Positions 39,635 to 60,043 are shown, numbered from the stretch's first letter. The stretch: DNA of 64,000 nt from an uncultured Candidatus Saccharibacteria bacterium (GCA_964563615.1 CAZLWF010000001.1:8206-72205); one strand, 5' to 3'. Program-made: numbers and translations. The notes: generated by a model not told the origin, from the letters alone.

Positions 39635-40195
39635 ATGAAAAACACCAAAAAAATTCTTATTAGCACTATCGCTTTATCAATGCTTATGTTTGCCGGTATT
39701 GCCCCAACATTTGCTGCTACAACAGTAGATACAAACGCACGAGCAACTATGAGTACTTCAGATAGAATTATGTCTATCCGAGAAAGATTTAGTGAGTACA
39801 TGACACGCATGGATAACGTTGTAAGTCGCCTTCGAGAAATCAATCAGAAACTCCAGGCTCGAGGTTATGATATGACCCGATACAATACTGAACTTAATCT
39901 TGTCATTGCAAAGCATGATGTTGCAAAAGCAAAAATCATGGCTTTCACAACTGCAGTAAGTGCATACCAAAATGGTCAATCTACAGAAAATGCAAAAGTT
40001 GCTCTTAAAGAAGCTATTGCTGCGATTAAAGATTTTCAAACTGCCGCAAAGGCCCTTCATGCAAATGAAAAAGCTTTCTTTGAAAGCATCAAGGCTAATG
40101 TAAAAGCAGATGCTGCAATTTCAGGAAATCCTGTAAATAGTATCCTCCCAAATTCACTTGAGCTTAACTCAAACATCCAATCTTCACTTCAATAA
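39635..40195 (+). CDS. Secreted helical protein (paralog 2)
   Basis: A signal peptide (ALSMLMFAGIAPTFAAT) is followed by a helical region with the same architecture as 38721-39149. Confidence 0.55.
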   Translation: MKNTKKILISTIALSMLMFAGIAPTFAATTVDTNARATMSTSDRIMSIRERFSEYMTRMDNVVSRLREINQKLQARGYDMTRYNTELNLVIAKHDVAKAKIMAFTTAVSAYQNGQSTENAKVALKEAIAAIKDFQTAAKALHANEKAFFESIKANVKADAAISGNPVNSILPNSLELNSNIQSSLQ

Positions 40196-40207: not shown

Positions 40208-40239
40208 TAAAAAAACACTCCATATGGGGTGTTTTTTTA
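40208..40239. terminator. Bidirectional terminator
   Basis: The sequence is aaaaaACACTCCatatGGGGTGTttttttt. It overlaps the recJ stop codon. Confidence 0.7.
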
Positions 40240-46647: not shown

Positions 46648-47751
46648 TTATTTTAATGCTTTAAGCCCTGGCAAAGTACCCTTCGTCAAAAATGCCAACG
46701 TGGCCCCGCCTCCTGTTGAGACAAAAGTAAATTTCTTCTCTAGACGAAGTTTGTGAACTAATGCAACCGTATCTCCTCCACCAATTATAGTGGTTGCCTT
46801 TGATTTGACTAATAGCTCAAGTACACCACGCGTACCCCTATCAAACCCCTCTTCGTAGAGGCCAGTTGGACCATTCCAAACGACTAACTTAGCTTTTGCA
46901 ATAAGTAGTGCAACTTCTTGCACAGTGCGGCTACCAATATCAACAATAATATCTTTTGATGTAATTTCAGCAATCGACTTAGTTTGTTTGCCACCATCTT
47001 TTTGTGTTACGACCACATCAACAGGCAAGAGTAACTTGGGTGTTTTTAGAAGCTTTTGTAAATGGAAATTCTTCGGTTCGTATAATGACTTACCGATTTC
47101 AAACCCTGCATCTTTGAAAAAATTATTCATAAGCGCCCCAGTAATAAGCATGTGATCTGCAGATTGTATAAATTTGGTTATGAGAGGCATTTTCGTGTCA
47201 AACTTGGCGCCACCTAGGATAAAAAGAAATGGGTGTTTGGGTTGTAAAATAAGCGATAAATGTTCAACTTCCTCAATTACCTGAAGTCCAGCATAGCTTG
47301 GAAGCAACTTCGGCATAAGGACGAGTGATGCATGCTTTCTGTGAGAGACAGAGAAAGCATCGTTGACGTATACATCAGCCAGGCTGGCTAATTTTTTTGC
47401 AAATGCCATGTCATTGTTCATTTCACCACTATTGCGTCTAACATTTTCAAGCAATACTATTTTAGTAGTATCAAACTCAATTGCATTAGGTAATGGATCT
47501 TGGATGAATCGAATTTTCATTTTCTTTGAGAGCCATGTCGCAACTGACTGCAAAGAAACACTACCATCCTCACCAGCGTGTGAAACGATAATAATACGGG
47601 CGCCTTTTTTCTTGAGATACTCTATTGTTGGCAATGTTTTTTCAATACGAAATGCATCGCGAACTTTGCCATTTTCAATTGGCACATTAAAGTCAGCACG
47701 CAATAAGACAATCTTGCCTTGTAGAGTTTTAATACTCGTAATTGATTTCAT
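46648..47751 (-). CDS. pgk: Phosphoglycerate kinase
   Basis: The motifs LRADFNVP, VSHAG and GGGDT are present. Confidence 0.93.
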   Translation of the reverse strand: MKSITSIKTLQGKIVLLRADFNVPIENGKVRDAFRIEKTLPTIEYLKKKGARIIIVSHAGEDGSVSLQSVATWLSKKMKIRFIQDPLPNAIEFDTTKIVLLENVRRNSGEMNNDMAFAKKLASLADVYVNDAFSVSHRKHASLVLMPKLLPSYAGLQVIEEVEHLSLILQPKHPFLFILGGAKFDTKMPLITKFIQSADHMLITGALMNNFFKDAGFEIGKSLYEPKNFHLQKLLKTPKLLLPVDVVVTQKDGGKQTKSIAEITSKDIIVDIGSRTVQEVALLIAKAKLVVWNGPTGLYEEGFDRGTRGVLELLVKSKATTIIGGGDTVALVHKLRLEKKFTFVSTGGGATLAFLTKGTLPGLKALK

Positions 47752-47754
47752 ATA

Positions 47755-48522
47755 TTACATCTCATTCGCCATTGCAAGGATTTTTAAAAATTTCTTCGGC
47801 TCAAGACTAACACGACCCGGCAACAGTCCGTCAACACCACCATGATATAGGAAGCCTTGTGCATTCTGCTCGTCTACTGAACCGCCGTAAATAATACGCG
47901 GGAGTGCTGCATATCGTGCACCAAATAGATCAGTGAGCACTTTACGTATATATATAGCCATTTCTTCAGATTCAATAGGTGTTGCAACTCTTTTAGCATC
48001 TTTACCAATTGCCCATAGTGGTTCATACGCTATGACGAGCGACTTTAACTCTGATGCTTTTATATCTTTAAGACATTCTTCTAATTGTGATTTTACAGCA
48101 TGCAAATACCAGACATCATCTTCACGAGTGCTCTCGCCGATACAGAGAATTGGTAGAATATTTTTCTTAAGCGCAGCTTTTATTTTTTTATTTATAAGCT
48201 CGTTTGTTTCCCCCAGAGCACGACGTTCTGAATGACCTACAATAACTGCTGTCGCACCTGCTTCTTGCAACATACTCATTGCTATTTCTCCTGTATAGGG
48301 GCCATTGGCTTCATAAAATGCATTCTGTGCAGCCAAACTGAGACGTTTAGAGGCCAATGATTTCAAAACCGGTAAGTACAAATACGGAACTGCAACTATG
48401 ACATCGATATTCTTATACGAATGATGTTCCTTTTTAATTGCTTTAAATATTGCGAGAGCTTTCGAGAATCCCACTGGATTCATTTTCCAGTTGCCAACAA
48501 TAATTTTCCGCTTTGATTCCAT
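47755..48522 (-). CDS. tpiA: Triosephosphate isomerase
   Basis: The motifs GNWKMN, VGHSERR, YEPLWAIG and GGSV are present. Confidence 0.93.
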   Translation of the reverse strand: MESKRKIIVGNWKMNPVGFSKALAIFKAIKKEHHSYKNIDVIVAVPYLYLPVLKSLASKRLSLAAQNAFYEANGPYTGEIAMSMLQEAGATAVIVGHSERRALGETNELINKKIKAALKKNILPILCIGESTREDDVWYLHAVKSQLEECLKDIKASELKSLVIAYEPLWAIGKDAKRVATPIESEEMAIYIRKVLTDLFGARYAALPRIIYGGSVDEQNAQGFLYHGGVDGLLPGRVSLEPKKFLKILAMANEM

Positions 48523-48542
48523 ACACTAAGTATACCATGAGA

Positions 48543-50033
48543 TTACTGCAGCTCTTGCCAAAATATTGTTGAATATTTATCTGATGTCCTCGGGAATGAT
48601 GGCGGTGGGCTATAGAGCAAATTAGCATCGTACGTATAGATACGAGATAAAAATCCACTTGCATCATTACTATAGCTCAATACTCCCTGCAAATTACTAC
48701 CAATCATGCCGTATGAATTAAATGAACTGAGCACATCATTTGGCGAACATTGTGCTGAACCATTGCCATTACCGGGACCAGGATAGTTGTAACGTATTAA
48801 GTTCCCATTTTGCGCAATAAGCGCTGCATCAACTGTAAGCACATCATCAGCAAAAAGGCCAACAATGGCATTATTCTGTGCAATAAGTCCAACAACATCC
48901 TGACCATCAAAGTTAGTGTAATTAATGCTGTGATTTATAATTATATTTTTTCTTGTTGAGGGATTATCAGGGAATTTTGCCGCTGCAATAGTAAGACGAG
49001 CACTGTTGACGGTACCGTCAACCCAAACATCATCTTCAGTAAAGATCAGTCCATTGGTAGGATTGGGGAAATTCCCAATGAGCGTCTGACCGCCAGCAGA
49101 AGGATTAATGCTCCACGTTCCCCAGCCATTTTGGTTCGAAGTATTTTTGCATGAATTGCGCGGCACTGGCGCCAAGCTATTTACTCTATATATATCAAAC
49201 GTATCATTGGTTTTTAGAACAATATGGTATCCCAAGGCTCCAGATGCAGCAAAATAATTACCACTTGTTTGTGCATCTGTCTTAAATGTTGATAAATTAC
49301 TAGTTATACCTACGAAATCCACTTGAGGTACTGGGAATTGTCTACCGGCAATAAAAACATCAGGTCTATTCTGCATAACAGATGGTGGTGCCTCAGCAGC
49401 TACATAGTTACCCCCGTATATTCCATTTAGTGGCGGAGGTTTTACATGAGTATGAACACCAAATTCTTGAGTAGCTCCAGGATGACTCGTATCAATATAT
49501 GATGCTTTGCCGCTAGTTACTACGTTATGTGCCAAAGCATCAAATCGTATACCGCCATTTGAATGCACAGGTCCAAAAAACTCAGCACCTTCAATAAAGC
49601 GAGTGTCAGCATTCGTCACAAGCGCAAACCGTGCCCAGGAAGGTATGGCTAAGTGAGTAACAACTGTGCGCGATATATTTGGATCAGAAGCAAGTGTACC
49701 TTTTGATTCGATGATGACAAGCGTTGAGCCAATAGGCGGTGGTGTAATTGTAAGCGTAAAGGTTCCGATTTGATTGCCATCTTTATCATTAAATGCGTGC
49801 ACATAAGGACCAGGCTGACCTGTACCATCCTGATAATCATTTGTTGCATGCGCTAAATGCCATCGATAATAATCAATACCCGCTTCTGCGATTTCAAAAG
49901 CCTGCTCGCGCTTTACGAGATTTGCTGCTGATTTCAAGCTCGCACCTGCCCAGCCAACAAATGCCACAACAAGCGTAATCGCAATTGCTGAGAAAACAAT
50001 AGTATTAAGAAGTATAAATCCTTTTATTCTCAT
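48543..50033 (-). CDS. PilX-like large minor pilin / pilus-associated protein
   Basis: The N-terminal hydrophobic helix MRIKGFILLNTIVFSAIAITLVV is a degenerate prepilin-like leader. The gene overlaps the upstream pseudopilin by 4 nt. Confidence 0.5.
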   Translation of the reverse strand: MRIKGFILLNTIVFSAIAITLVVAFVGWAGASLKSAANLVKREQAFEIAEAGIDYYRWHLAHATNDYQDGTGQPGPYVHAFNDKDGNQIGTFTLTITPPPIGSTLVIIESKGTLASDPNISRTVVTHLAIPSWARFALVTNADTRFIEGAEFFGPVHSNGGIRFDALAHNVVTSGKASYIDTSHPGATQEFGVHTHVKPPPLNGIYGGNYVAAEAPPSVMQNRPDVFIAGRQFPVPQVDFVGITSNLSTFKTDAQTSGNYFAASGALGYHIVLKTNDTFDIYRVNSLAPVPRNSCKNTSNQNGWGTWSINPSAGGQTLIGNFPNPTNGLIFTEDDVWVDGTVNSARLTIAAAKFPDNPSTRKNIIINHSINYTNFDGQDVVGLIAQNNAIVGLFADDVLTVDAALIAQNGNLIRYNYPGPGNGNGSAQCSPNDVLSSFNSYGMIGSNLQGVLSYSNDASGFLSRIYTYDANLLYSPPPSFPRTSDKYSTIFWQELQ

Positions 50034-50626
50034 AAATTATCTTTTAGATTTCTCATTGATATTTGAGTCATGACTGTCATCGGACCCGGCGTTCGATTAA
50101 CATCTTCATCAATAATAAAAGTGACCTTCACTAGCCGTATAGTTGAAATAATAACTGGCTGCACCAATGGATTCGTTGTGCCATCATAATTAGTATCATA
50201 ATATTCAAAAATTGGACTCGTACCATTTTGTACACCCTCAACAACGTCTGTAATAATTTCAGAGCTAGGATCGTATATAAAATTATTACCTGTTGGCTTG
50301 ATGATACCTTTCTTTAATAGTGTACCACTTACGTAGTATCGCACACGCTCCTTGAGTCCATCGTTATCAATATCAGAGAAAAAAACAAATGCATTTGATG
50401 CAGCCTGCTCAATTGGATATGCACCAGCCGATGATGGCGATATTGATCTGATTTCATCTGCCATCGGCCTTAGAATACGACGCGCTTGGTCGGAAGTATT
50501 GAGTGAGTGTGAAAAGATATTTGAAAAATAAAATGTATCACCACTAAACCTTCCCACAATCGTAACCACGATGCCGATGACAGCAAGGGTTACGAGCAAT
50601 TCAATGAGTGTAAAGCCTTTTGACAT
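50030..50626 (-). CDS. Type IV pilin-like protein (prepilin N-terminal motif)
   Basis: MSKGFTLIELLVTLAVIGIV matches the G|FTLIE class III signal. Confidence 0.78.
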   Translation of the reverse strand: MSKGFTLIELLVTLAVIGIVVTIVGRFSGDTFYFSNIFSHSLNTSDQARRILRPMADEIRSISPSSAGAYPIEQAASNAFVFFSDIDNDGLKERVRYYVSGTLLKKGIIKPTGNNFIYDPSSEIITDVVEGVQNGTSPIFEYYDTNYDGTTNPLVQPVIISTIRLVKVTFIIDEDVNRTPGPMTVMTQISMRNLKDNL

Positions 50627-50630
50627 AGAA

Positions 50631-52445
50631 TTATGGTGTTATAGCAACCTCAAGCTTCTGCCAATTTGAATTAATAGTAACTGACCCAGAATACGTCTGG
50701 TATCCTGCTTTTACGACGGACACCGTATACTCTCCAGCCGAAAGTCCACTGAATGAAACTTGCCCTGGTGGTGTACATGAGGTTGTAAATGTAAATGAAA
50801 TATCTGATATCGATGGTGTGACAGAGGTATCCTCTGTCGTAAGAAACACCCGATAGCGAAAATATCGATTGCCATTGAGAAGTGCACTCAATGCATTATC
50901 TCCACTTGTATAGTAGGTGGCATTTGTACCATCACGGCCTCTAAAATCCCAGGTTGCATTATCATTGTTCGTTGCCACTTGAAACTTAACACTTTCACTA
51001 CCAGCTTGCGCTGGTTGCGGTGTAGGCGACCAATAAATCTGATGGAAATTATTTTCTCCATTCGTATCAAATGTTGAAGAGGTCAGATACCCACTCGACA
51101 CGTACGTACCAAATACATTTCGCAATTTTAATTCGCCTGTAGGACTTTTTGCATCAATATTACCATCTGAACTAGAATAAAGGGTCGGATCAACAAAATC
51201 TTCTTGATCGCTACCTCCTGACCAATCAGTCTGTGTCAAAAATCCTTCACCCGTTCGTTGGATGACATCATATGACAGATCTTCAGTTGCAACTTCAACA
51301 TTGGCATCTGTAATGGGCAATCCGGTTGATTGATCTCGGACAACAACGAGTAACCGATTTGGATTCTTTGGTGCAACAATGAGCTGCATATCTTGTAGCG
51401 AATCAGGCAAGAGCCCAAGTGATAAGAGCGGGTTGGTACCGATAAGATCATAGGTCGAATCAGCAAGTGCAATTGTGTAGGTATCCCATTCAAGGTTTGT
51501 TATCGTCTTTACACCAGAGCTATTTGTAGTTTCTGTAGATGTATACTTCAAAACATCAGGCGTTGTCCCAATTATTTTTGACCCTGAAAGTTCGTAGGTT
51601 ACCCCAGGTTTTGCCACGCACGTATCGCTCGTCGTGGTAGTCGTCAATGTACTTGTTTTATCAATACTAAAACTTACCTGAGTAATTTGTTGAACAACGA
51701 CCGTTGCATCAGGTGTTGTAGGATTTGGATTATCGATTGCATTTGGTGGATATGATTGGTCAGTAGAATAGCCATCTTTGGTTACGACAATGTGGTACGA
51801 GCCGACTGCAGGTGGAGCATCGACAATAGTAAGTGTGCCATCCACACCACTGACATCACTAATGTGAACGGCAGGAACGAGCGTTGGGTTATCAATAGTT
51901 ATTGTGGCATCAGGCAGTGCTACTCCATTTGCATCAAACACATTGATAATGAGTGCTCCATTCGTCGAGGCTGTCTCCAAATCTTTCGGTGCTATGTGGG
52001 TTGTATACATGAGTGGTACAAAATTTTGACACACCACACAAGTAATCTCGATCGTTACTAGCTTATTGTCAGCCGGAGAAAGATCATTGGGAGTGCCTCC
52101 GATAGTACCGTCGAACACTTCGTCAATATTTCGAATTGTTGTTGTCACACCAAATGAAATCCCATCACGTGTTAATGTCTGTATATGTGGAATAGAACCT
52201 GATGGGATACCACCTTGAGTTCCGACACTTGCATATGGCAGATTGCGTAAAATTTCAAACTCTTCATTTGCAAGAGAAGCTGCGACAACCCGAGCATTTA
52301 AAATCGTCGTCGTTTTTATAATTTTTACATACACTTCATATAATGCGACAGACACAACCATGAAAAATCCTATTGCAACGAGTGTCTCAATTAGCGTCAT
52401 ACCGCGATACCTGTTTGTTGTTTGTCGTTGCATATTATGAAACAC
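50631..52445 (-). CDS. Giant pseudopilin (604 aa) with repeated Ig/carboxypeptidase-regulatory-like beta domains
   Basis: RGMTLIETLVAIGFFMVV is a prepilin motif. Repeats such as INVFDANGVALPDATITI and VVVRDQSTGLPITDANVEV are present. Confidence 0.68.
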   Translation of the reverse strand: MFHNMQRQTTNRYRGMTLIETLVAIGFFMVVSVALYEVYVKIIKTTTILNARVVAASLANEEFEILRNLPYASVGTQGGIPSGSIPHIQTLTRDGISFGVTTTIRNIDEVFDGTIGGTPNDLSPADNKLVTIEITCVVCQNFVPLMYTTHIAPKDLETASTNGALIINVFDANGVALPDATITIDNPTLVPAVHISDVSGVDGTLTIVDAPPAVGSYHIVVTKDGYSTDQSYPPNAIDNPNPTTPDATVVVQQITQVSFSIDKTSTLTTTTTSDTCVAKPGVTYELSGSKIIGTTPDVLKYTSTETTNSSGVKTITNLEWDTYTIALADSTYDLIGTNPLLSLGLLPDSLQDMQLIVAPKNPNRLLVVVRDQSTGLPITDANVEVATEDLSYDVIQRTGEGFLTQTDWSGGSDQEDFVDPTLYSSSDGNIDAKSPTGELKLRNVFGTYVSSGYLTSSTFDTNGENNFHQIYWSPTPQPAQAGSESVKFQVATNNDNATWDFRGRDGTNATYYTSGDNALSALLNGNRYFRYRVFLTTEDTSVTPSISDISFTFTTSCTPPGQVSFSGLSAGEYTVSVVKAGYQTYSGSVTINSNWQKLEVAITP

Positions 52446-53652
52446 TATCCATTAAGGAATACATCGGTGAAATCATTGATATCGCAAAGAATCCCACAGC
52501 CCCACCAATAAAAATCATTAAAATTGGCTCAATAATAGTTGATAGGTCCTTTGTTTTTGTATCAACCTCACCTTCATAGAAAGTAGCAATATCCATAAGC
52601 ATGCTTGATAATTTGCCTGTTTCTTCTCCAACTTCCATCATCTCTCCAACCATGATTGGATAGAGCCGATCTGCTTCCTTAAATATTGAAGAAAGTGTGA
52701 TACCTTTTTGCACTGACACAATCGCCTTAGAGATAACTGCCTTGTAATACATATTCTGAACCACTTCTTCAGTAATCATTAATGCTTTCGTCATATCAAC
52801 ACCTGCATTTAAAAGTGACGATAATGTCCGGGCAGTACGTGCTGCATTTACTTCTTGCACAATGCCACCAATAACAGGTATGCGAATAATAATAAAATCA
52901 GTATATTTTTTAATACCCTTTATTTTTGAAATTCCAAACAATCCACCTCCAAATGCAAAGAGAACAAGGAAGGTAAGGACGGGGCTATGCGAGAGCGAGT
53001 CACTAATAAATATGATTAGTTGTGTACTTTTCGGTAATTCTACATTTAAGTCTTTAAATGTATTCGTCAGTGTCGGCACGACAAATATCATCATCAAAAT
53101 ACCAATAAGCACAATTGCGACCATGATAATAGACGGGTACATGAGAGCGCCTTTTATTTTCTTATTGAGTGCATATGTTTTCTCAAGCGTGCCACCAACT
53201 TCACTCAATGTTTGCGGCATACTTCCGGATTCCTCCCCAGCACGAACCATAGAGACAAACAGCGTAGAAAATACTTTTGGGAATTTCGTCATCCCTTCAG
53301 ATAGCGTGCCGCCACGGTCAATATCTTTGATAAGCATACTTAATATTTTCTTAAATTTCTCATTTATCGTTTGCTTCTCCAATACTGACAAAGCTCGGTA
53401 GAGTGACAGCCCAGCTGAGAGCATGCCGCTTAGATTTCTGGTAAAAATTATTTTTTCGTGTAGTTTAACACCACCGAAGAGTCCACTTAAAAAAGATAGT
53501 CCTCCAAGCGCTTTTACTTTTGTAAGTGTAAGCGCAAGCGGTATGAGACCTTGAGCACGAAGCGCTTTTGCTGCGACAAATTTATCTGACGCTTCAATAA
53601 CACCTTCAGTCTGCACACCCTCTTTATTTTTTGCTTTGTATGTGAATTGCAT
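52435..53652 (-). CDS. pilC: Type IV pilus assembly platform protein PilC (GspF family)
   Basis: The protein is 405 aa with two T2SSF repeats and three TM segments. It lies next to pilB. Confidence 0.9.
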   Translation of the reverse strand: MQFTYKAKNKEGVQTEGVIEASDKFVAAKALRAQGLIPLALTLTKVKALGGLSFLSGLFGGVKLHEKIIFTRNLSGMLSAGLSLYRALSVLEKQTINEKFKKILSMLIKDIDRGGTLSEGMTKFPKVFSTLFVSMVRAGEESGSMPQTLSEVGGTLEKTYALNKKIKGALMYPSIIMVAIVLIGILMMIFVVPTLTNTFKDLNVELPKSTQLIIFISDSLSHSPVLTFLVLFAFGGGLFGISKIKGIKKYTDFIIIRIPVIGGIVQEVNAARTARTLSSLLNAGVDMTKALMITEEVVQNMYYKAVISKAIVSVQKGITLSSIFKEADRLYPIMVGEMMEVGEETGKLSSMLMDIATFYEGEVDTKTKDLSTIIEPILMIFIGGAVGFFAISMISPMYSLMDSVS

Positions 53653-53664
53653 AATATATTTTGA

Positions 53665-55422
53665 CTATTCCGACACGACTCGAAGCACTTCCTCTGTTGT
53701 GGTTAACCCCGATACTGCCATATATAATCCATCTTCAAGCATCGTCATCATTCCCTCTTTTTTAGCCTGATCTGAGATAACGTCTTCTGAAGCACCCTTT
53801 AGTATGAGCTCCTTGATACTTGTCGTCACTTTTAATACTTCATGAATACCAAGTCGACCACTATAACCTGATTCCGATTCTTCTGAAGGTACAGCTTTAT
53901 AGAACGGTATCGTCTCCCAGGTCGCATCTTGTGGCACAATATTCTCAGTCTTGATCATAGTAAGCATCCGATCCAAATCTATAATTTTAGCTAATGCAGC
54001 TATTTCAGTTGGATTTAAAAAATACTTTTCTTTCGTATTGGTTAATTTTCTCACAAGACGTTGGCCGATAATCGTCTTTATAGTTGAGACCAAGAGAAAT
54101 GATTCAGCGCCCATGTCTATCATACGAGGAATAGCACCCGCGGCTGAATTCGTATGGATTGTCGAGAGCACCAAGTGACCAGTCAACGCAGCATTAATAG
54201 CAAGTGATGCCGTCTCCGTATCTCGGATCTCACCAACCATGATAATATCTGGGTCTTGTCGCAAGAGCGTGCGAAGTCCGTTAGCAAACGTAAGCCCGAT
54301 TTCTGATTTGACCTGAGTTTGGTTGATTCGCTGCATTTGATATTCGATCGGATCTTCGACAGTGGAAATATTAACGTCAGGTGTATTTAGAATATCGAGC
54401 ACAGTATAGAGTGTTGTGGTTTTACCTGAACCAGTCGGTCCAGTCGCCAAAATCATACCCGTTTTTTGCTTCATACCTTCATGAATGCGCTCCATCGCTT
54501 CTCCATGGAAGCCCAAACCTTCCAGAGTAAAACCTTTGGCATTTTCCTTCAATATTCTGATAACTGTTTTCTCGCCATAATAGGTAGGTAATGTTGAGAC
54601 ACGAAACGATACCTGATCACCAGCTTCAGTCGTGATTTTGAAGCGTCCGTCTTGTGGCAACCGTTTCTCGTCGAGTTTTAGATTCGACAGCACTTTAATA
54701 CGCGCTGTAATACCAGCTGCTGCATCTTTGGGCAGTACCATCGCATCATGGAGTATGCCGTCGATACGATAGCGAACAAGCAATTCATTTTCCTCAGGCT
54801 CAATATGGATATCAGATGTATTTTGGAGGATTGCATGGGATATAAGTGTATCGACAATCTTAACTACTGGCAGATCATCAGCCATGGCTTTGAGTTCTTT
54901 ACCAGAAAGTCCTGTTTCACCATTTTCTTCGGCGATCATCTTAAGTGACACAGATTCTTTTTTGATGATGTCATCAAAATCAGCCTTGAGACTTTTTTTG
55001 TACTGCGACAGTGCATGTTTGAGTGACTCAGTATCAGTCAAACGCGGCGAAATCTTAAGCTCAACTTTTTTCTTAATGAAGTCGATCACCGAGAGGTCTT
55101 CAATATCGAGCATCGCAACTTCGAGTTCATCAGCACGCTTGCGATACGCGATAATATTGTGATTGCGAGCAATAGGTTCAGGAATAAGTGAAAGTATTTC
55201 AAACGGAATTTTCTCTCCAAGCAGTGAAATAAACGGTATGCCTAATATATAGGCTTGCATTCGTTTGAGATCAGAATCGGTAATCTTACCAGCTGACAAG
55301 AGTACATCGCCGATCGATTGCTCTTTCTCTTTGGCTTCTTTTATTGCTGCTGTTAAATCCGCTTTCGAAACTAATCCCGCTTCTGCAATAAAAGTTTTTA
55401 ATTGTTCTTCTTTGATTTGCAT
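53665..55422 (-). CDS. pilB: Type IV pilus assembly ATPase PilB (GspE family)
   Basis: Walker A GPTGSGKTTT, Asp box and His box (TGHLVLSTIHTN) motifs are present. Confidence 0.93.
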   Translation of the reverse strand: MQIKEEQLKTFIAEAGLVSKADLTAAIKEAKEKEQSIGDVLLSAGKITDSDLKRMQAYILGIPFISLLGEKIPFEILSLIPEPIARNHNIIAYRKRADELEVAMLDIEDLSVIDFIKKKVELKISPRLTDTESLKHALSQYKKSLKADFDDIIKKESVSLKMIAEENGETGLSGKELKAMADDLPVVKIVDTLISHAILQNTSDIHIEPEENELLVRYRIDGILHDAMVLPKDAAAGITARIKVLSNLKLDEKRLPQDGRFKITTEAGDQVSFRVSTLPTYYGEKTVIRILKENAKGFTLEGLGFHGEAMERIHEGMKQKTGMILATGPTGSGKTTTLYTVLDILNTPDVNISTVEDPIEYQMQRINQTQVKSEIGLTFANGLRTLLRQDPDIIMVGEIRDTETASLAINAALTGHLVLSTIHTNSAAGAIPRMIDMGAESFLLVSTIKTIIGQRLVRKLTNTKEKYFLNPTEIAALAKIIDLDRMLTMIKTENIVPQDATWETIPFYKAVPSEESESGYSGRLGIHEVLKVTTSIKELILKGASEDVISDQAKKEGMMTMLEDGLYMAVSGLTTTEEVLRVVSE

Positions 55423-55470
55423 AAGAAATATACATGTTTATTATAGCAGAGAAGAAATAATTATTGGTAT

Positions 55471-55507
55471 AAAAAAACAAAATCGCCACAGGCGATTTTG
55501 TTTTTTA
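55471..55507 (-). terminator. Rho-independent terminator upstream of pilB
   Basis: The sequence is AAAAAAACAAAATCGCCacaGGCGATTTTGTTTTTTT. Confidence 0.75.
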
Positions 55508-55520
55508 TCTTAGGTTAGTT

Positions 55521-56801
55521 CTACCACTCAAATCGAACAGCACCACTTCCTCCATTTTGTGCTTGACCACCAGGATTTGCATTAGCTCCAATACCACCTG
55601 CACCGAGAGAGTATGTGTAGGCTCCTGAACTCCAGACTGATGTTGTTGACTGTGCACCACCAGCTCCTCCTTTGACACCAGTATTATAGGTACATCCTGC
55701 TGCACCACCTCCACCATAAACTATAGTCGTAGGACTTCCACAGTTTTGATTACTATTTTGGGTACCTAGATTAAATGCTGGGGCAGCGCCACTTGAACCA
55801 GTACCAGCAACACCGCTTTGTGGACCAAGTCCTGCTACAGTACTTGCACTTGATGGGTTAAAGGTTGCCCCGCCGCCACCGAGAGCTGTTAGAATAACCG
55901 AGCCTTTGGTAACTGTTGTTTGTGCACCATTAGTACCATTAGTACCATCATAGTCTCCGGTGACGCCACCATAGGTGACTCCGCCTCCGCCTCCGCCAAC
56001 TGCTTTGACGGTGAATGCAGCACCACTATTAAATTCAGTACTTGGAGGAGTAAATGATGAACCTGAAACAAACGTCTTGAGACCATTTGCTGTATAGGTA
56101 GCTGTATCAGTAAATGTACTTGCTCCTTGTGTACAAGTAAGTGAGAAAGTTGTTACGCCAAATTTCTCTATTGTCACTGTAGTATTTCCACTTGAGTTTA
56201 TAACAGATGCGCTCGGCCATCCTGTTGCATTACTTGCAGGACTCAATGTTTGACCTGCAATACTACAGCTAACACCGATTGGTACTGTCCATGATAGTGT
56301 AACTGGTCGAGATATAGCAGTATTTTCAGAGACTGTAAATTGACTTTCAGACAATGTAAGATCAATTCCTGTTGGAGCAGATACTGCACATGGAATAATT
56401 TTACCCGAAGATCGTTCAATACAAAGATGGTCTATATTACTGCTCCCTGATACTGCATATTTCTCAAAATATATATCCCCACCTTGCCCATATGCTGGTG
56501 ATTGTCCAGTATCTGGATTAAAAACTGGACCAAAAAAAACTCTATCCGCAAACGAAGCTGACCTCGCTGCATTGAATGTTCCAACAGCTATTCCACCGCA
56601 AACACCTGTTGGGCAAATACCCGTTGGTATTGTTTTTGCTTGGTTTGTTGAACTTTCATTAAATGGCGCCGCGACGTTATTACCTGGTGCATCAGCGGTT
56701 GGACCGACGAAGGCTGATACGTAACTCACGCCGACTGCAATGATGAGTCCAAGCAATATCACTTTTGCACTTTGCAATATATTATTTTTTTCTTGTTTCA
56801 T
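55521..56801 (-). CDS. Surface protein with N-terminal anchor/signal and C-terminal glycine-rich domain
   Basis: After the N-terminal helix comes NVAAPFNESSTNQAK. The C-terminal 170 aa contain GGGGGG, GGGG and GGAGG runs and end in GGSGAVRFEW, a pattern seen in glycine-rich fibre-like domains. Confidence 0.6.
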   Translation of the reverse strand: MKQEKNNILQSAKVILLGLIIAVGVSYVSAFVGPTADAPGNNVAAPFNESSTNQAKTIPTGICPTGVCGGIAVGTFNAARSASFADRVFFGPVFNPDTGQSPAYGQGGDIYFEKYAVSGSSNIDHLCIERSSGKIIPCAVSAPTGIDLTLSESQFTVSENTAISRPVTLSWTVPIGVSCSIAGQTLSPASNATGWPSASVINSSGNTTVTIEKFGVTTFSLTCTQGASTFTDTATYTANGLKTFVSGSSFTPPSTEFNSGAAFTVKAVGGGGGGVTYGGVTGDYDGTNGTNGAQTTVTKGSVILTALGGGGATFNPSSASTVAGLGPQSGVAGTGSSGAAPAFNLGTQNSNQNCGSPTTIVYGGGGAAGCTYNTGVKGGAGGAQSTTSVWSSGAYTYSLGAGGIGANANPGGQAQNGGSGAVRFEW

Positions 56802-56839
56802 ATTATCTAGAATACTAAATTATTGGTAAGTAAACAATG

Positions 56840-58255
56840 CTAATAATTTCTCGGCTCATTATATATCGGCACAATGCCTCCGCCTCCGCCAGTTGTTGGA
56901 TTTTGTCCATATTTACACGGCAGTGGTCCTCCATAGTTAGTTGCGGTTGGGTCTTGGCAAGTTGCCGTATATTTTGAAACAATGACAGTATTCGATGTTA
57001 TCCATGTACCATTGTTTGCTAAACATTTAACTTGAAAGTTTGTTGGATTTGTTGGCACACTAATACCTATTTTACTTATCGCATAATTATTTGCTGAGGT
57101 TAGTGTTCCGAGGTTTGTATTCCAGTCAGTACCGCCGCCCATACCAACGCAACTTGTCGTTGCGCTATAGTCAGGGTTCGAAGAGTCAAATCCAAGATCG
57201 ATAAGGTAAGTTGGTGGGAATGCTGTACCACTTGTTGCTGTTGATCCATTAATATGGAGTGACAATGTAGGCGTGATTGTTGCAGATGTGTTTACTGTTG
57301 CTGTAGCAACTGTTGCCTTGGTATTTGCTGGAGTTTTGTAGCAAGATAAAGTGTACTTCGTACCACTTGCAGGAACGAGCATATCAGAAATTGATTTAAA
57401 TATTGTAGGATTGGCCGGTGGTGGAGGAGGCAAATTAGCAGAACCAGCGGAGAAATCAAGCGTTGTCCATGCAGGCACTACCTGAGTAGATGTAGCAGCA
57501 CAGTGATCAAATACAGTACCATTTGGTGACCACCAATTGAGGTATACTTTATTTCCTGTCGGAATAGTGATTACCTTTGGAAGCCCTTGGAGATTAGTAG
57601 CGGACGTAGCTGTAGGTATAACTGCAAGACCATCAGTTGACTGTGCCTCAGTAACAACATTTATAAATTTTATCCACCCGGTCACTTCAGATCCCCAGGC
57701 AAATCCAGTGAGTGCCCCAGTTCCTGGATCATATGAAATACCATACGCAAACTCAGATAATTGTAACCCAACTGAGTCTGGATCTTGATCGTTGACAGCA
57801 TTTAAACTAATCCACCCATCCCAACCAGGAGGACCACTACCTGCCAATACTCTTGCGAAACCTACTAATTTGTTTGTTGTAAAGTTAAGCCGTGCATTGC
57901 ATTCTCCATTCGTTCCTGAAGGACATCCAGCATCAAACTGTACCCAACCATAATTGTCACTCCAAGCATTTCCTGTCATATAACCAGTTGTCATATCGAC
58001 ATTAACGCCGTACTTTGTGGAAATTGTTTGCATGCCATCATCAACATGTGAACAACCACCAGAACTTGGATTTGTACAATTAAACGAAAGCCAGCCCATA
58101 CCTCCTGCAGTACCATCTGGCATTTGTGCTTCTCCCCAAGCCCAGCCGGTAACATTATCGCCTGAACCAGCAAATGCTTTTGATGAATAGAGAAAAGTAC
58201 TCACAGCAAACAGTACTATAAGTAGATATATACCGAAAATAAAATGTCTCTTCAT
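56840..58255 (-). CDS. Secreted protein with four GWAW...GW(I/L)xF repeats
   Basis: A signal peptide is present. The four repeats are TGWAWGEAQ..GMGWLSFN, GNAWSDNYGWVQFD, GFARVLAG..GWDGWISLN and GFAWGSEVTGWIKF. Confidence 0.6.
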   Translation of the reverse strand: MKRHFIFGIYLLIVLFAVSTFLYSSKAFAGSGDNVTGWAWGEAQMPDGTAGGMGWLSFNCTNPSSGGCSHVDDGMQTISTKYGVNVDMTTGYMTGNAWSDNYGWVQFDAGCPSGTNGECNARLNFTTNKLVGFARVLAGSGPPGWDGWISLNAVNDQDPDSVGLQLSEFAYGISYDPGTGALTGFAWGSEVTGWIKFINVVTEAQSTDGLAVIPTATSATNLQGLPKVITIPTGNKVYLNWWSPNGTVFDHCAATSTQVVPAWTTLDFSAGSANLPPPPPANPTIFKSISDMLVPASGTKYTLSCYKTPANTKATVATATVNTSATITPTLSLHINGSTATSGTAFPPTYLIDLGFDSSNPDYSATTSCVGMGGGTDWNTNLGTLTSANNYAISKIGISVPTNPTNFQVKCLANNGTWITSNTVIVSKYTATCQDPTATNYGGPLPCKYGQNPTTGGGGGIVPIYNEPRNY

Positions 58256-58261
58256 ATTATT

Positions 58262-58582
58262 TTATTGACCACCTAAACTATTGAGGGCATTCATCTGATC
58301 TTCTGTCGTCACTGTAGTCCCTGAAGATGATTTTGCTAAATTATCTAATTCTTGCGTTTGTTGTTCTGAGGTAACAGGCTCTTTTGAGGAAGTTTCTCCT
58401 AATCGATTAAGTTCTTGTAGTCTTGCTTCAACTGAAGATGGATCAAGAGTTGGTTTTTTATGTTTTAGGTAGTATATGTAACCAGCTATAACGACTAGGA
58501 TGATGCCAAGTGTAAGCCACAAAATCCTCCTTTTTTTATGAGAAACAACTACTTGTGGCGATTGAGCTTGATTTGGTTCCAT
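58262..58582 (-). CDS. Small membrane-anchored protein with short tandem QELN-type repeats
   Basis: A TM segment (WLTLGIILVVIAGYIYY) is followed by LQELNRLG, TQELDNLA and QMNALNSLG. Confidence 0.5.
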   Translation of the reverse strand: MEPNQAQSPQVVVSHKKRRILWLTLGIILVVIAGYIYYLKHKKPTLDPSSVEARLQELNRLGETSSKEPVTSEQQTQELDNLAKSSSGTTVTTEDQMNALNSLGGQ

Positions 58583-58735: not shown

Positions 58736-60043
58736 ATGAAAAACATAGCCTTATTGCTCATAAGCATTCTTGTTGGAGCAATAACTGCTCCAGCACAAAC
58801 ACTGTTTTCCCAAAAATTTTCCTTGGGATTAGGTGAGCCCAATAATGCACCTACTATGCTTGCAGCTCATGGAGATAGCTTATTAATTCTTGGCGGAGTA
58901 GAAAAAGCCGTTTTCTGGGTAAATAACAGCATTATCCCAACCACAGGTCTTGAAGACTTGAATCTGGATGTCAATCAACAAAAATCGTGTGTGTATTTTA
59001 ACCATAAATGGTGGATAGGTATTGGCACAGTAAATGATGGGCAAAAATATCTCCTTAATACAACAGGAGGGGAAGCAAGTTGGACATCTCCTTTCGCGAT
59101 TGATAGTCCTGTAAATGATGTATTTGTCCATGATGGCCTACTGTATGTTGTCGGAGCATTTAATACAGTAGACGGTCAAGTCGTAAATCATATTTTTACT
59201 GTGGACAGTCTCAACAATGTCACCAAAGTGGGTAGTAACGGCCATCAACAAAAAATTGTAACCGGGTTAGTTTTAAATGATGATTTATACATCATTGACT
59301 ATGTTCCGTTTGCAATACCCGCCCAAAGAACATTATGGAAATTTCGCAATGAGTGGAGTCGGATTGATTTAGGTTTTAAGTATCAGTGCATTGGTACTGA
59401 TATGGCAGTCGATCAGTCAGGTAAATTACTTATCGGCGGTATTTTTTATGATGGCAATGCTGACTGGTACAATGGATTAATAAAATACGACATAGCTTTA
59501 GACAGTGTCATATTTGTTCTTGACGACTGTTTAGGAATCTTTTATGTAGATTCCTGGAATAATCTCGTATTTTTTTCGGGACCGGTTAGTGAGATAGAAG
59601 GACAGCCTGTTGCAGTATGTGACCTTAATTTTCTAGATGAACAAAATGTAAACCATTATTACAGTGATAATGGTTGCATCGGGTATCTGCCTGGTATTCC
59701 ATATTTAGGACACTACGCCACAATCGAAAGTATCGAGGGTAATGGCCTCTCTGATTTGTGTATAGTGGATACAGTTCCTTTTACTTTAACCGGTATTAAG
59801 GATATTGTTACTCATCAAGCAGTAAAAGTTTACCCAAATCCTGCTGTCGATATAGTTACCTTAGAGGGTACCAGCGGTGATATTAGTATCTTCAATATCG
59901 TTGGGCAGCAAATTAATGTTCCAAGTGAAAGCAGTGGTGCCAGGGTAAATCTTGATATCCGCAATTTGTCGACTGGAATTTACACGATAGTTGTGGTTTC
60001 GAAAGGTGACCGAAGTGTAGCCCGTTTTGAGAAGATTGAGTAA
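58736..60043 (+). CDS. Secreted beta-propeller-like protein with T9SS (Por) C-terminal sorting domain
   Basis: The signal peptide is MKNIALLLISILVGAITAPAQ. The C-terminus VKVYPNPAVDIVTLEGTSGDISIFNIVGQQI...LSTGIYTIVVVSKGDRSVARFEKIE matches the TIGR04183-type CTD pattern. Confidence 0.7.
   Translation: MKNIALLLISILVGAITAPAQTLFSQKFSLGLGEPNNAPTMLAAHGDSLLILGGVEKAVFWVNNSIIPTTGLEDLNLDVNQQKSCVYFNHKWWIGIGTVNDGQKYLLNTTGGEASWTSPFAIDSPVNDVFVHDGLLYVVGAFNTVDGQVVNHIFTVDSLNNVTKVGSNGHQQKIVTGLVLNDDLYIIDYVPFAIPAQRTLWKFRNEWSRIDLGFKYQCIGTDMAVDQSGKLLIGGIFYDGNADWYNGLIKYDIALDSVIFVLDDCLGIFYVDSWNNLVFFSGPVSEIEGQPVAVCDLNFLDEQNVNHYYSDNGCIGYLPGIPYLGHYATIESIEGNGLSDLCIVDTVPFTLTGIKDIVTHQAVKVYPNPAVDIVTLEGTSGDISIFNIVGQQINVPSESSGARVNLDIRNLSTGIYTIVVVSKGDRSVARFEKIE

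What the first reader, a model, noticed from the sequence alone, without database searches (positions are those of the whole stretch)
48543..58582. Type IV pilus locus with giant pseudopilins but no obvious major pilin or prepilin peptidase
One minus-strand block of about 10 kb encodes:
- a small repeat-bearing membrane protein
- a 471-aa GW-repeat protein
- a 426-aa glycine-rich protein
- PilB and PilC
- a 604-aa pseudopilin with Ig-like repeats
- a 198-aa pilin-like protein
- a 496-aa PilX-like protein

The block runs directly into tpiA-pgk. No short major pilin, PilD, PilM/N/O or PilT is present in the window. A terminator at 55471-55507 separates the two large surface proteins from pilB.

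This looks like a Patescibacteria-style pilus, possibly carrying large tip or adhesin modules used for host attachment or DNA uptake.
Basis: partly seen in the sequence, partly recalled or inferred. Interest (0 to 1): 0.55.

Follow-up and report, generated by a model that had tools for sequence, protein, structure and literature searches.

The report
Patescibacterial pilus operon plus surface-protein cassette
This is an ordinary, partial type IV pilus locus of an ultrasmall (Patescibacteria) bacterium, with motor, platform and three tip-type pilins; beside it lies a fast-evolving three-gene surface-protein cassette whose main family is large, unannotated and often found in pilus gene clusters.

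Summary
All eight genes, the terminator and the run-on into tpiA-pgk are at the stated coordinates. No PilD, PilT, PilM/N/O or short major pilin is in the window.

The block is two transcription units.
- Unit 1 (55422-48543, probably on to pgk): pilB, pilC, a 600-aa modular prepilin, a 198-aa prepilin and a 496-aa PilX/GspK/ComZ-like protein lacking Glu5. This is a secretin-less pilus motor plus a minor-pilin (priming/tip) set. The "giant pseudopilin" is not rare: at least 1,839 protein clusters match it, mostly ~600 aa and 50-64% identical, many already named prepilin-type. A scattered pilus gene layout with large accessory pilins is published for Saccharibacteria.
- Unit 2 (58582-55521): a small membrane protein with three repeats, a secreted "GW-domain" protein and a secreted glycine-rich protein. 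This cassette recurs across Patescibacteria and evolves fast.

GW-domain genes lie near pilB in 21 of 75 loci. In a second pilus-cluster type they sit between pilD and prepilin genes. The cassette also occurs without adjacent pilB/pilC.

GW proteins and the PilX-like pilins share a specific C-terminal tag (aromatic-x-Glu-hydrophobic).

Verdict: a known kind of pilus locus, with one interesting uncharacterised neighbour family.

The parts
58262..58582 (-). 106-aa bitopic membrane protein with three 'S/T-x-E-E/Q-x-x-x-L-N-x-L' repeats; first gene of the upstream cassette
   Evidence: ORF. No Pfam or NCBIfam family. A same-strand ORF of at most 140 aa lies directly upstream of the GW gene in 25 of 75 loci. 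About 18 of these show the helix-plus-repeats pattern on reading the sequences.
56840..58255 (-). 471-aa secreted GW-domain protein: Sec signal peptide (AFA|G), an all-beta domain of ~170 aa with five GW motifs, two Ig-like domains, a Gly-rich linker and the C-terminal tag PIYNEPRNY
   Evidence: Alignment. AlphaFold2 model with mean pLDDT 74.7 and a disordered tail at 438-471. No Pfam, NCBIfam or PHROG hit. 16,656 cluster representatives match the family profile. 505 relatives occur in GTDB species genomes; the 80 best, which were listed, are all Patescibacteria or unclassified MAGs.
55521..56801 (-). 426-aa secreted protein: Sec signal peptide, a conserved N-terminal module on the mature protein (…P-x-x-x-P-G-N-N-V-A-A-P-F-N-x-S-x-x-x-Q-x-K…), one Ig-like domain and a glycine-rich C-terminal domain
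   Evidence: Alignment. The N-terminal module recurs in 49 proteins of the fetched loci. Positional orthologues hit Pfam Gly_rich_2 (8e-10 and 4e-5) and phage tail-fibre or minor-tail PHROGs. The window protein itself gives no hit, and its AlphaFold2 model is poor (mean pLDDT 45).
55472..55506 (-). Intrinsic terminator ending the upstream cassette
   Evidence: -18.7 kcal/mol, z = -6.9, followed by a U-run.
55440..55448 (-). Extended -10 promoter-like element (TGCTATAAT), 18 nt upstream of the pilB start codon
   Evidence: Read directly from the sequence. It is a consensus match only.
53665..55422 (-). PilB-type extension ATPase, 585 aa, with an N-terminal MshEN domain and Walker A motif GPTGSGKTT
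   Evidence: T2SSE 2e-122 and MshEN 3e-12. TIGR02538 scores 516 bits, below its equivalog cut-off of 675.65.
52435..53652 (-). PilC/GspF platform protein, 405 aa
   Evidence: T2SSF 7e-55, two stretches. GspF and PilC NCBIfam models score 311 and 270 bits, below their cut-offs.
50631..52433 (-). 600-aa modular prepilin (G|MTLIE) carrying prealbumin/Ig-like domains
   Evidence: At least 1,839 homologous clusters exist, and many are named prepilin-type.
50030..50626 (-). 198-aa canonical prepilin (G|FTLIE); its start is 4 nt after the preceding gene's stop and its end overlaps the next gene by 4 nt
   Evidence: N_methyl 5e-7 and TIGR02532 8e-8. PDB matches cover only the pilin N-terminal helix.
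48543..50033 (-). 496-aa PilX/GspK/ComZ-like pseudopilin: G|FILLN (no Glu5), QAFEIAEAG motif, repeats resembling a beta-solenoid, C-terminal tag …IFWQELQ
   Evidence: PilX_N 1e-3 for the window protein; 3 of 11 homologues hit it, best 4e-5. The family profile hits Thermus ComZ (PDB 6QVI) at E=0.0086. W492 is invariant and E494 nearly invariant.
46648..48522 (-). tpiA and pgk, probably co-transcribed with the pilus genes (gaps of 20 and 3 nt)
   Evidence: ORFs. TIM and PGK Pfam marks appear on the orthologues. The same order is kept in many relatives.
58736..60043 (+). Divergent neighbour: 435-aa secreted protein with a T9SS-type C-terminal sorting domain; hypervariable
   Evidence: Por_Secre_tail 1e-11 and TIGR04183 3e-8. 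It is only 43% identical to its counterpart in CP064958.1, whereas neighbouring genes are 94-99% identical.

Best explanation
The block is two adjacent but separately transcribed units in a Nomurabacteria-like Patescibacterium.

Unit 1 is pilB-pilC-600aa-198aa-496aa, probably continuing into tpiA-pgk. It encodes the extension ATPase, the membrane platform and a three-member minor-pilin set of a monoderm-type (secretin-less) type IV pilus.
- The two prepilins have canonical Gly-1/Glu+5 signal peptides.
- The 496-aa protein lacks Glu5, as GspK and PilX do, and weakly resembles Thermus ComZ.
- Inferred: the three proteins form the complex that primes assembly on PilC and ends up at the filament tip.
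- Inferred: the major pilin, the prepilin peptidase, PilT and PilM/N/O are encoded elsewhere in the genome. This scattered layout is documented for Saccharibacteria TM7x, and related Paceibacteria carry a second, complete cluster.
- Inferred: the most likely job is DNA capture for uptake. The pilins are conserved about as well as PilC, and ComEC lies about 11 kb away. Adhesion is not excluded.

Unit 2 is the 106aa-471aa-426aa cassette. It encodes a membrane protein and two Sec-secreted surface proteins.
- The cassette is conserved as a unit across Patescibacteria and diverges fast.
- Orthologues of the 426-aa protein end in a glycine-rich domain related to phage tail-fibre modules.
- Inferred: it is a cell-surface recognition or adhesion module.
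- Inferred, and not established: it cooperates with the pilus. The GW protein may dock on the pilus through its flexible C-terminal aromatic-x-Glu-hydrophobic tag, which the PilX-like pilin shares.
For: Shown for Unit 1:
- Domain identities of PilB and PilC.
- Class-III signal peptides, and Asn instead of Glu at +5 in the 496-aa protein.
- PilX_N hits and the ComZ profile hit.
- Tight gene spacing.
- Terminator and promoter-like element between the two units.
- In relatives the same slot between pilC and tpiA holds four genes: prepilin-type genes of ~150, ~165 and ~170-185 aa, then a ~590-620-aa PilX-like gene. I read these as a GspH/I/J/K-type set, from gene order and N-terminal motifs. None is an obvious major pilin.
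- ComEC, a separate metallo-beta-lactamase gene and RecJ are in the window.
- Published work describes pilus-plus-ComEC systems as widespread in this phylum, with ComEC rarely fused to the lactamase domain (PMC6744442).
- TM7x has four scattered pilus loci and large accessory pilins without canonical signal peptides (PMC11623550).
- L085 shows a complete second-type cluster: PilM, PilO, PilB, PilT, PilC, PilD and prepilins.

Shown for Unit 2:
- Cassette synteny is kept in L001, L005, L006-L010 and many more distant loci.
- A protein with the 426-type N-terminal module lies within 3 kb on the same strand in 30 of 75 GW loci.
- pilB is present in 21 of 75 GW loci, and in 9 of 29 loci with full flanks. 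The binomial p is 3e-4 against an assumed 8% background.
- GW genes sit between pilD and prepilin genes in L085, and among the pilin genes of similar clusters in L075, L060 and L039.
- 9 of 15 loci of the GW subfamily ending W/F-x-E-[IV]-x-P carry pilus genes.
- The C-terminal tag occurs in 43 of 76 GW proteins against 4 of 1,029 other ORFs (Fisher p = 1e-51). Among non-GW ORFs, 10 of the 13 ending in W-x-E are the PilX-like pilins.
- The tag follows a disordered linker in the model.
- Identity to the near-identical genome CP064958.1 falls to 90% (GW protein), 80% (106-aa protein), 64% over only the first third (426-aa protein) and 43% (Por_Secre_tail protein). Pilus and housekeeping genes are 94-99% identical.
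Against: - No major pilin, PilD or PilT could be located for this organism. The rest of its 88.9-kb contig and genome was out of reach, so a complete pilus is inferred, not shown.
- The PilX_N hit is below Pfam's cut-off, and the ComZ hit is marginal (E = 0.0086) and covers only the N-terminal quarter of the profile.
- PilB and PilC score below all NCBIfam equivalog cut-offs.
- The cassette is separated from pilB by a strong terminator.
- The cassette occurs between nusA and tpiA with no pilB/pilC in L028, L042, L048 and L015. In L033 and L067 it sits downstream of nusA with no pilB within 7-8 kb.
- About 70% of GW loci show no pilus gene within reach.
- Much of the window-type synteny could be inherited gene order, because nusA and tpiA-pgk flank it too.
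- The 8% background rate is my assumption.
- The window's own 426-aa protein gives no Pfam or PHROG hit, and its structure model is unusable (pLDDT 45).
- No structural analogue was found for the GW domain.
Confidence: 0.65

Rival explanations
1. One reading: the large pseudopilins are tip adhesin modules, and the pilus mainly attaches the cell to its bacterial host.
For: - The 600-aa pilin carries several Ig/prealbumin-like domains.
- In TM7x a large accessory pilin, PilX2, is needed for efficient host binding (PMC11623550).
Against: - The three pilins are conserved about as well as PilC: 62-63% versus 71% at 87% PilB identity, and 94-96% versus 94% against CP064958.1.
- The 600-aa family keeps 50-64% identity over its full length in more than 100 clusters. 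Host-specific adhesins normally diverge fast.
- The fast-evolving proteins lie in the upstream cassette instead.
Confidence: 0.25
2. The upstream cassette (106, 471 and 426 aa) has no connection with pili. It is an independent surface-protein operon that sits next to pilB because gene order in this nusA…tpiA-pgk neighbourhood is inherited.
For: - A strong terminator and a separate promoter-like element divide the two units.
- The cassette is present without pilB/pilC in L028, L042, L048, L015, L033, L067 and L002-L004.
- Most GW loci lack pilus genes within 10 kb.
- nusA and tpiA-pgk flank many of the syntenic loci.
Against: - GW-domain genes also occur inside a different, divergent pilus cluster type (PilB 35-42% identical), among pilD and prepilin genes and in unrelated genomic contexts.
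- 9 of 15 loci of one GW subfamily carry pilus genes.
- The C-terminal tag is shared specifically with the PilX-like pilins.
Confidence: 0.35
3. The pilB-pilC-pilin unit is a type II secretion-like or Com-like pseudopilus. It stays short and either exports proteins or only opens the wall for DNA, rather than building an extended pilus.
For: - The window has no PilT, PilM/N/O or major pilin.
- GspE and GspF models score nearly as well as the PilB and PilC models.
- The gene order ATPase-platform-pilins resembles comGA-comGB-comGC….
Against: - ComGA and ComGB equivalog scores are far below their cut-offs: 258 versus 300 bits and 144 versus 240 bits.
- A type II secretion system needs an outer-membrane secretin, which this phylum lacks (PMC6744442).
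- Long pili have been imaged on a relative, TM7x (PMC11623550).
- The sequence alone cannot settle filament length.
Confidence: 0.15

Closest known systems
Saccharibacteria (Nanosynbacter lyticus TM7x) type IV pilus loci T4P-1 and T4P-2 (PMC11623550)
   Same: - Same phylum-level group and a secretin-less pilus.
- Machinery and pilins are split over several loci, with major pilins away from pilB/pilC.
- Large accessory pilins carry extra C-terminal domains and lack a canonical PilD-type signal, as the 496-aa protein here lacks Glu5.
   Different: - The TM7x loci that carry pilB/pilC also carry pilM/N/O. This one does not.
- The accessory domains differ: a jelly-roll and a beta-propeller in TM7x, versus prealbumin/Ig-like and solenoid-like regions here.
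- No GW-domain or glycine-rich cassette is described in the passages of that paper that I read.
Core minor pilins FimU/PilV/PilW/PilX and the type II secretion pseudopilins GspH/I/J/K
   Same: - A small set of pilin-like genes with tight gene spacing.
- The last member is large, has a PilX_N-type N-terminus and lacks Glu5.
- Relatives carry a four-gene set in the same slot, which I read as GspH/I/J/K-like.
   Different: - There are three genes here, not four.
- One is a 600-aa modular pilin.
- Sequence matches beyond the N-terminal helix are absent or below threshold.
Thermus thermophilus ComZ (PDB 6QVI; PMC6561018), a tip-located competence pilin that binds DNA
   Same: - A large pilin-like protein with a QAF..AEAG N-terminal motif followed by a region resembling a beta-solenoid.
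- The family profile matches ComZ at E = 0.0086.
- A DNA-uptake gene (comEC) lies nearby.
   Different: - The match is marginal and covers only about 115 profile positions.
- DNA binding is untested.
- Thermus is diderm and has a secretin.
PilY1 (Pseudomonas, Myxococcus) and PilC (Neisseria): non-pilin, Sec-secreted pilus-tip proteins encoded in minor-pilin operons
   Same: In related genomes the GW protein is a Sec-secreted non-pilin encoded among minor-pilin genes (L085, L075).
   Different: - No PilY1/Neisseria_PilC domain, beta-propeller or vWA domain was detected.
- The fold is different: a GW all-beta domain plus Ig-like domains.
- The resemblance is in gene position only.
Phage tail-fibre tip proteins with glycine-rich domains (Pfam PF21722 Gly_rich_2; PHROGs 863, 356 and 754)
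   Same: Positional orthologues of the 426-aa protein match these families in their glycine-rich C-terminal ~200 aa.
   Different: - The window protein itself is below threshold.
- It is a cellular protein with a Sec signal peptide, not a phage gene.
- The structure could not be modelled.

Membership tests
Type IV filament system (type IV pilus) | PilB/GspE-family hexameric ATPase (T2SSE domain, Walker A) | tested here: met
   T2SSE E = 2e-122; the sequence reads GPTGSGKTT.
Type IV filament system (type IV pilus) | PilC/GspF platform protein with two T2SSF domains | tested here: met
   T2SSF E = 7e-55, two stretches.
Type IV filament system (type IV pilus) | Pilins with a class-III signal peptide (Gly-1, hydrophobic helix, Glu+5) | tested here: met
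   The 198-aa protein reads G|FTLIE and the 600-aa protein G|MTLIE. N_methyl scores 5e-7 and 6e-3 respectively.
Type IV filament system (type IV pilus) | Prepilin peptidase (Peptidase_A24) | tested here: not met
   No A24 hit among the non-ribosomal ORFs of the 64-kb window. The rest of the genome could not be reached. A relative, L085, has one in a separate cluster.
Type IV filament system (type IV pilus) | A short, abundant major pilin | tested here: not met
   Only two class-III signal peptides occur in the window. Both belong to genes spaced a few bases from, or overlapping, their neighbours and look like minor pilins. The rest of the genome was not testable.
Type IVa pilus specifically | PilT retraction ATPase and the PilM/N/O alignment complex | tested here: not met
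   No second T2SSE protein and no PilM_2, PilN or PilO hit in the window.
GspK/PilX-type minor pilin | Hydrophobic pilin-like N-terminus without Glu5, plus the PilX_N motif | tested here: inconclusive
   Position +5 is Asn. PilX_N scores 19.4 bits against a cut-off of 25.5. Three of 11 homologues hit it, best 4e-5. The ComZ profile hit has E = 0.0086.
Competence (Com) pseudopilus: ComGA, ComGB, ComGC-GG | Equivalog-level matches to ComGA and ComGB, and a ComGC-like major pilin directly after ComGB | tested here: not met
   ComGA scores 258 bits (cut-off 300) and ComGB 144 bits (cut-off 240). The ComGC model matches the 198-aa protein only over the N-terminal helix, at 16 bits.
PilY1 / Neisseria PilC tip adhesin (considered for the 471-aa GW protein) | C-terminal PilY1 beta-propeller domain | tested here: not met
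   No Pfam hit for the window protein or its homologues. The model shows a GW beta-domain plus Ig-like domains.
T9SS cargo (considered for the 435-aa neighbour) | Type A C-terminal sorting domain | tested here: met
   Por_Secre_tail 1e-11 and TIGR04183 3e-8, both above their cut-offs.
T9SS cargo (considered for the 435-aa neighbour) | A type IX secretion machine in an outer membrane | not testable with these tools
   No whole genome was available. This phylum is reported to lack a Gram-negative envelope (PMC6744442), so the domain probably does something else here.

The most novel reading that the evidence does not exclude
The GW-domain family is a Patescibacteria-specific, non-pilin accessory or tip protein of type IV pili. 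The family has about 16,600 cluster representatives and no Pfam, NCBIfam or PHROG model. On this reading, the proteins are secreted by Sec and then dock on the minor-pilin complex through a flexible C-terminal aromatic-x-Glu-hydrophobic peptide, the tag that the PilX/ComZ-like pilin also carries. In this way they would couple fast-evolving recognition domains, and the neighbouring tail-fibre-like glycine-rich proteins, to a conserved pilus.
Probability: 0.22. Interest if true: 0.65.

Novelty: new member of a known kind. Interest (0 to 1): 0.38.

Why it matters
Type IV pili are among the few conserved surface machines of the ultrasmall, host-dependent Patescibacteria. They have been tied experimentally to host binding in Saccharibacteria (PMC11623550) and are proposed to serve DNA uptake in this phylum (PMC6744442).

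This locus adds nothing new about the pilus itself. It is a typical partial locus, and its large pilin belongs to a common family that databases already annotate.

What could matter is the neighbour. A three-gene cassette built around a very large, unannotated secreted-protein family recurs next to, or inside, pilus gene clusters of two different types. That family shares a specific C-terminal tag with the tip-type pilin.

If the tag is a docking or sorting signal, it would explain how these cells hang variable recognition proteins on a conserved machine. It would also give a sequence handle for finding such proteins across the phylum.

Tried and rejected
- **AlphaFold2 of the 426-aa protein** (7-sequence alignment): mean pLDDT 45. 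Only an Ig-like domain at about 145-245 is modestly confident, so no fold search was run.
- **Foldseek of the GW model against PDB and the viral library:** only generic tandem Ig-like matches, all with TM-scores of 0.23 or less. Nothing matched the GW domain itself.
- **phmmer of the three pilins against PDB:** nothing beyond the pilin N-terminal helix.
- **Reaching the rest of the organism's 88.9-kb contig to look for pilD, pilT and a major pilin:**
  - The NusA and trigger-factor sequences are not on record.
  - The RNase J and GW look-ups returned other, shorter contigs.
  - No pilus genes were found in the few extra kilobases.
- **First related-locus search with the full GW alignment:** it failed for lack of a conserved stretch. 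A trimmed alignment then worked.
- **The 426-type proteins as non-canonical pilins:** considered because of the N-terminal helix, the conserved module and the tandem paralogues of 100-870 aa. Rejected because the N-terminus reads as a standard Sec signal with an AxA cleavage site and has no G|F…E motif.
- **The 198-aa protein as the major pilin:** considered. Judged unlikely because of its tight spacing with its neighbours and its PilC-like conservation, but not excluded.
- **Literature searches for Patescibacteria with PilY1, and with T9SS sorting domains:** nothing relevant to the GW family or to Por_Secre_tail proteins in this phylum.

Full report

Yes.

- PilB: T2SSE E = 2e-122, with an N-terminal MshEN domain.
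- PilC: T2SSF E = 7e-55, two domains.
- The 198-aa protein begins MSKG|FTLIE. It hits N_methyl at 5e-7 and TIGR02532 at 8e-8.
- The 604-aa ORF contains …RG|MTLIE and has CarboxypepD_reg, PEGA and SpaA-type (prealbumin/Ig-like) hits. The protein on public record starts at Met5, giving 600 aa at 50631-52433.
- The 496-aa protein begins MRIKG|FILLN. It has a pilin-like helix but Asn instead of Glu at +5. Its PilX_N hit is below threshold (E = 1e-3, 19.4 bits against a cut-off of 25.5).

The terminator is genuine. The hairpin at 55506-55472 has a free energy of -18.7 kcal/mol and z = -6.9 against shuffles, and a U-run follows it. A TGnTATAAT element lies 18 nt before the pilB start codon.

Gaps between pilB, pilC, the three pilin genes, tpiA and pgk are 12, 1, 4, -4, 20 and 3 nt. 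These seven genes are therefore probably one transcript.

A six-frame motif scan finds only two class-III signal peptides in the 64 kb. Pfam scans of every non-ribosomal ORF find no prepilin peptidase, no second PilB/PilT-type ATPase and no PilM, PilN or PilO.

**2. Whose genome is it?**

Homologues are all from Patescibacteria. The closest is the closed genome Candidatus Nomurabacteria CP064958.1 (locus L008). Its PilB, PilC, the three pilins, TpiA, Pgk, NusA and the pyrophosphatase are 94-99% identical in protein sequence to the window's.

**3. The pilus unit**

*A minor-pilin set, not a major pilin.* In related genomes the slot between pilC and tpiA holds one of two sets:
- The same trio as here: ~600, ~200 and ~480 aa. 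This is seen complete in L005, L008-L010, L020 and L082; L001 and L018 are cut off by their contig ends. In L020 the trio is inverted.
- A four-gene set: a ~150-aa prepilin, a ~165-aa protein, a ~170-185-aa prepilin and a ~590-620-aa protein. I read this as a GspH/I/J/K-type core minor-pilin set, from gene order and N-terminal motifs.

The last, large protein of both sets is homologous (alignment A5). PilX_N is detected in 3 of 11 members, best 4e-5. The family profile hits Thermus ComZ (PDB 6QVI) at E = 0.0086. That match covers the QAF..AEAG motif and the start of the beta-solenoid. ComZ is a tip-located competence pilin that binds DNA (PMC6561018). The hit is marginal, and I treat it as a lead.

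So the locus encodes the motor, the platform and a priming/tip pilin set. No major pilin is evident in either version.

*Known precedent.* The scattered layout is documented in TM7x. There, four loci hold the pilus genes, major pilins lie away from pilB/pilC, and the largest accessory pilins lack a canonical PilD-type signal (PMC11623550).

A complete second-type cluster exists in related Paceibacteria. L085 carries PilM, PilO, PilB, a response regulator, PilT, PilC, a prepilin, PilD, a GW gene and three more prepilins. Whether this organism has such a cluster could not be checked.

*The "giant pseudopilin" is common.* The 600-aa protein has at least 1,839 homologous clusters. The best 120 are nearly all 580-653 aa and 50-64% identical over the full length. 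Several sources already name them [quoted passage not shown].

*Conservation argues for a conserved job.* All three pilins evolve about as slowly as PilC:

| Comparison | PilB | PilC | Three pilins |
|---|---|---|---|
| L001 / L010 | 87% | 71% | 62-66% |
| CP064958.1 (L008) | 99% | 94% | 94-96% |

This fits a conserved job better than host-specific adhesion. The window also carries ComEC (36276-37766), a separate metallo-beta-lactamase gene and RecJ. This matches the published picture of a pilus-plus-ComEC DNA-uptake system in this phylum (PMC6744442). I therefore favour DNA capture as the function. That is an inference.

**4. The upstream cassette**

The 106-, 471- and 426-aa genes form a separate unit, ended by the terminator.

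*The 471-aa (GW) protein.*
- It has a Sec signal peptide (…KAFA|GSG).
- An all-beta domain of ~170 aa carries five G[WY]AWS…GWISFN-type motifs, followed by two Ig-like domains.
- A Gly-rich tail is disordered in the model (mean pLDDT 74.7; the tail is below 50).
- No Pfam, NCBIfam or PHROG model covers the GW domain.
- Fold searches returned only generic Ig-like matches.
- The family is huge. A profile search finds 16,656 cluster representatives at E ≤ 1e-3 and 3,718 at E ≤ 1e-30, and many of the best matches have a minimal ~310-330-aa architecture. There are 505 relatives in GTDB species genomes. The 80 listed are Patescibacteria or unclassified MAGs.

*The 426-aa protein.*
- It has a Sec signal peptide.
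- The mature protein starts with a conserved module (consensus W-T-x-P-T-x-x-P-P-x-x-N-x-x-A-P-I-N-V-G-x-x-x-Q-x-K-x-G-x-L). This module recurs in 49 proteins of 100-1,043 aa in the fetched loci, often as tandem paralogues.
- Its glycine-rich C-terminus gives no hit itself. Positional orthologues hit Pfam Gly_rich_2 (8e-10 and 4e-5) and phage tail-fibre or minor-tail PHROGs (1.8e-6 and 2.5e-4).
- The AlphaFold2 model was unusable.

*The 106-aa protein.* A same-strand ORF of at most 140 aa lies directly upstream of the GW gene in 25 of 75 loci. About 18 of these show the helix-plus-three-repeats pattern on reading.

*Rate of change.* The cassette evolves fast. Against CP064958.1 the identities are:

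| Protein | Identity to CP064958.1 |
|---|---|
| Pilus and housekeeping genes | 94-99% |
| GW protein | 90% |
| 106-aa protein | 80% |
| 426-aa protein | 64%, over the first third only |
| Divergent Por_Secre_tail neighbour | 43% |

**5. Is the cassette linked to pili?**

*Evidence for a link.*
- Of 75 GW loci from different species, 21 carry pilB. Among 29 loci with at least 8 kb on both sides, 9 do. The binomial p is 3e-4 against a background that I assumed to be 8%.
- Sixteen of the 22 pilB-carrying loci in the raw table show the window's arrangement, often with nusA upstream and tpiA-pgk downstream. Part of this signal may therefore be inherited gene order.
- Six loci place a GW gene next to a divergent pilus cluster (PilB 35-42% identical) in unrelated contexts. 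In L085 the GW gene lies between pilD and three prepilin genes. In L075, L060 and L039 it lies among the pilin genes of a similar cluster.
- In the GW subfamily ending W/F-x-E-[IV]-x-P, 9 of 15 loci carry pilus genes, including 9 of the 10 loci that are at least 11 kb long.
- A C-terminal tag, P-x-aromatic-x-E-x(0-5), ends 43 of 76 GW proteins but only 4 of 1,029 other ORFs (Fisher p = 1e-51). Among non-GW ORFs, 13 end in W-x-E-x(0-2), and 10 of those are the PilX-like pilins. In that family W492 is invariant and E494 nearly so.

*Evidence against a link.*
- The terminator separates the cassette from pilB.
- The cassette sits between nusA and tpiA with no pilB/pilC in L028, L042, L048 and L015.
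- About 70% of GW loci show no pilus gene within reach.

My reading is that the family-level association with pili is real. For this particular cassette, a physical or functional link is only plausible.

**6. Comparison with known systems**

As a pilus, this locus is a new member of a known kind: secretin-less Patescibacteria pili with modular accessory pilins.

- It is not a Com operon. The ComGA and ComGB equivalog scores are well below their cut-offs.
- The window lacks the PilT and PilM/N/O components expected of a type IVa pilus cluster.
- The GW protein occupies the genomic position that PilY1 holds in Proteobacteria, but it shares none of PilY1's defining domains.

**7. Verdict**

The pilus locus is ordinary and its giant pilin is common.

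The more interesting result lies outside the title claim. A large, unannotated secreted-protein family and its cassette are statistically tied to pilus clusters and share a C-terminal tag with the tip-type pilin.

Overall interest is 0.38. If the docking hypothesis holds, interest would be about 0.65; I put its probability at about 0.2.

Noticed in passing
window 56840-56870 and 48543-48570 (C-termini of the 471-aa and 496-aa proteins); loci L001-L089: GW proteins and PilX-like pilins share a specific tag at the extreme C-terminus: aromatic-x-Glu-hydrophobic, for example PVFEEF, PDWQEILPW and …IFWQELQ. No membrane helix follows it, so it is not a sortase- or exosortase-type signal. It could be a docking or sorting peptide.
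   Followed up: partly
window 58736-60043 (+); also L001, L005, L006, L008 and L002-L004: A secreted protein with a type IX secretion (T9SS) C-terminal sorting domain occurs in a phylum thought to lack an outer membrane. It is kept beside the cassette in relatives. It is only 43% identical between two genomes whose other genes are 94-99% identical.
   Followed up: partly
window 46648-55422 (-): The pilus genes appear to be co-transcribed with the glycolytic genes tpiA and pgk (gaps of 20 and 3 nt, with no room for a terminator). This order recurs in many relatives.
   Followed up: partly
window 36276-37766 (-), 34732-35592 (-), 40237-41892 (-): ComEC (Competence domain plus DUF4131) is encoded without its usual fused metallo-beta-lactamase domain, which is a separate gene about 700 bp away. 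RecJ is nearby.
   Followed up: partly
window 5743-8466 (-): A 907-aa protein has weak TrwB/TraG-type coupling-protein hits and carries DUF8128 in the public record. It may be part of the Patescibacteria type IV secretion system.
   Followed up: no
loci L006, L065, L068, L079, L080 and L088 versus the window; L020: The slot between pilC and tpiA holds one of two alternative pilin gene sets in different relatives: a four-gene set or the 600/198/496 trio. In L020 the trio is inverted. This suggests whole-set replacement or rearrangement.
   Followed up: partly
window 44738-46564 (-) and 42062-43780 (+): Two more large secreted proteins flank the region: a 608-aa protein with an fn3 domain and a 572-aa protein with a zinc-metalloprotease motif. 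Both end in hydrophobic-x-hydrophobic-Glu.
   Followed up: no
window 38721-39149 (+) and 39635-40195 (+): Two small secreted proteins (142 and 186 aa) with similar N-terminal sequences look like paralogues. They have no informative family match.
   Followed up: no
L085 8335-9006 and 15385-16176: Genes resembling the IS200/Y1 transposase sit inside and beside the complete pilus cluster of a Yanofskybacteria genome.
   Followed up: no
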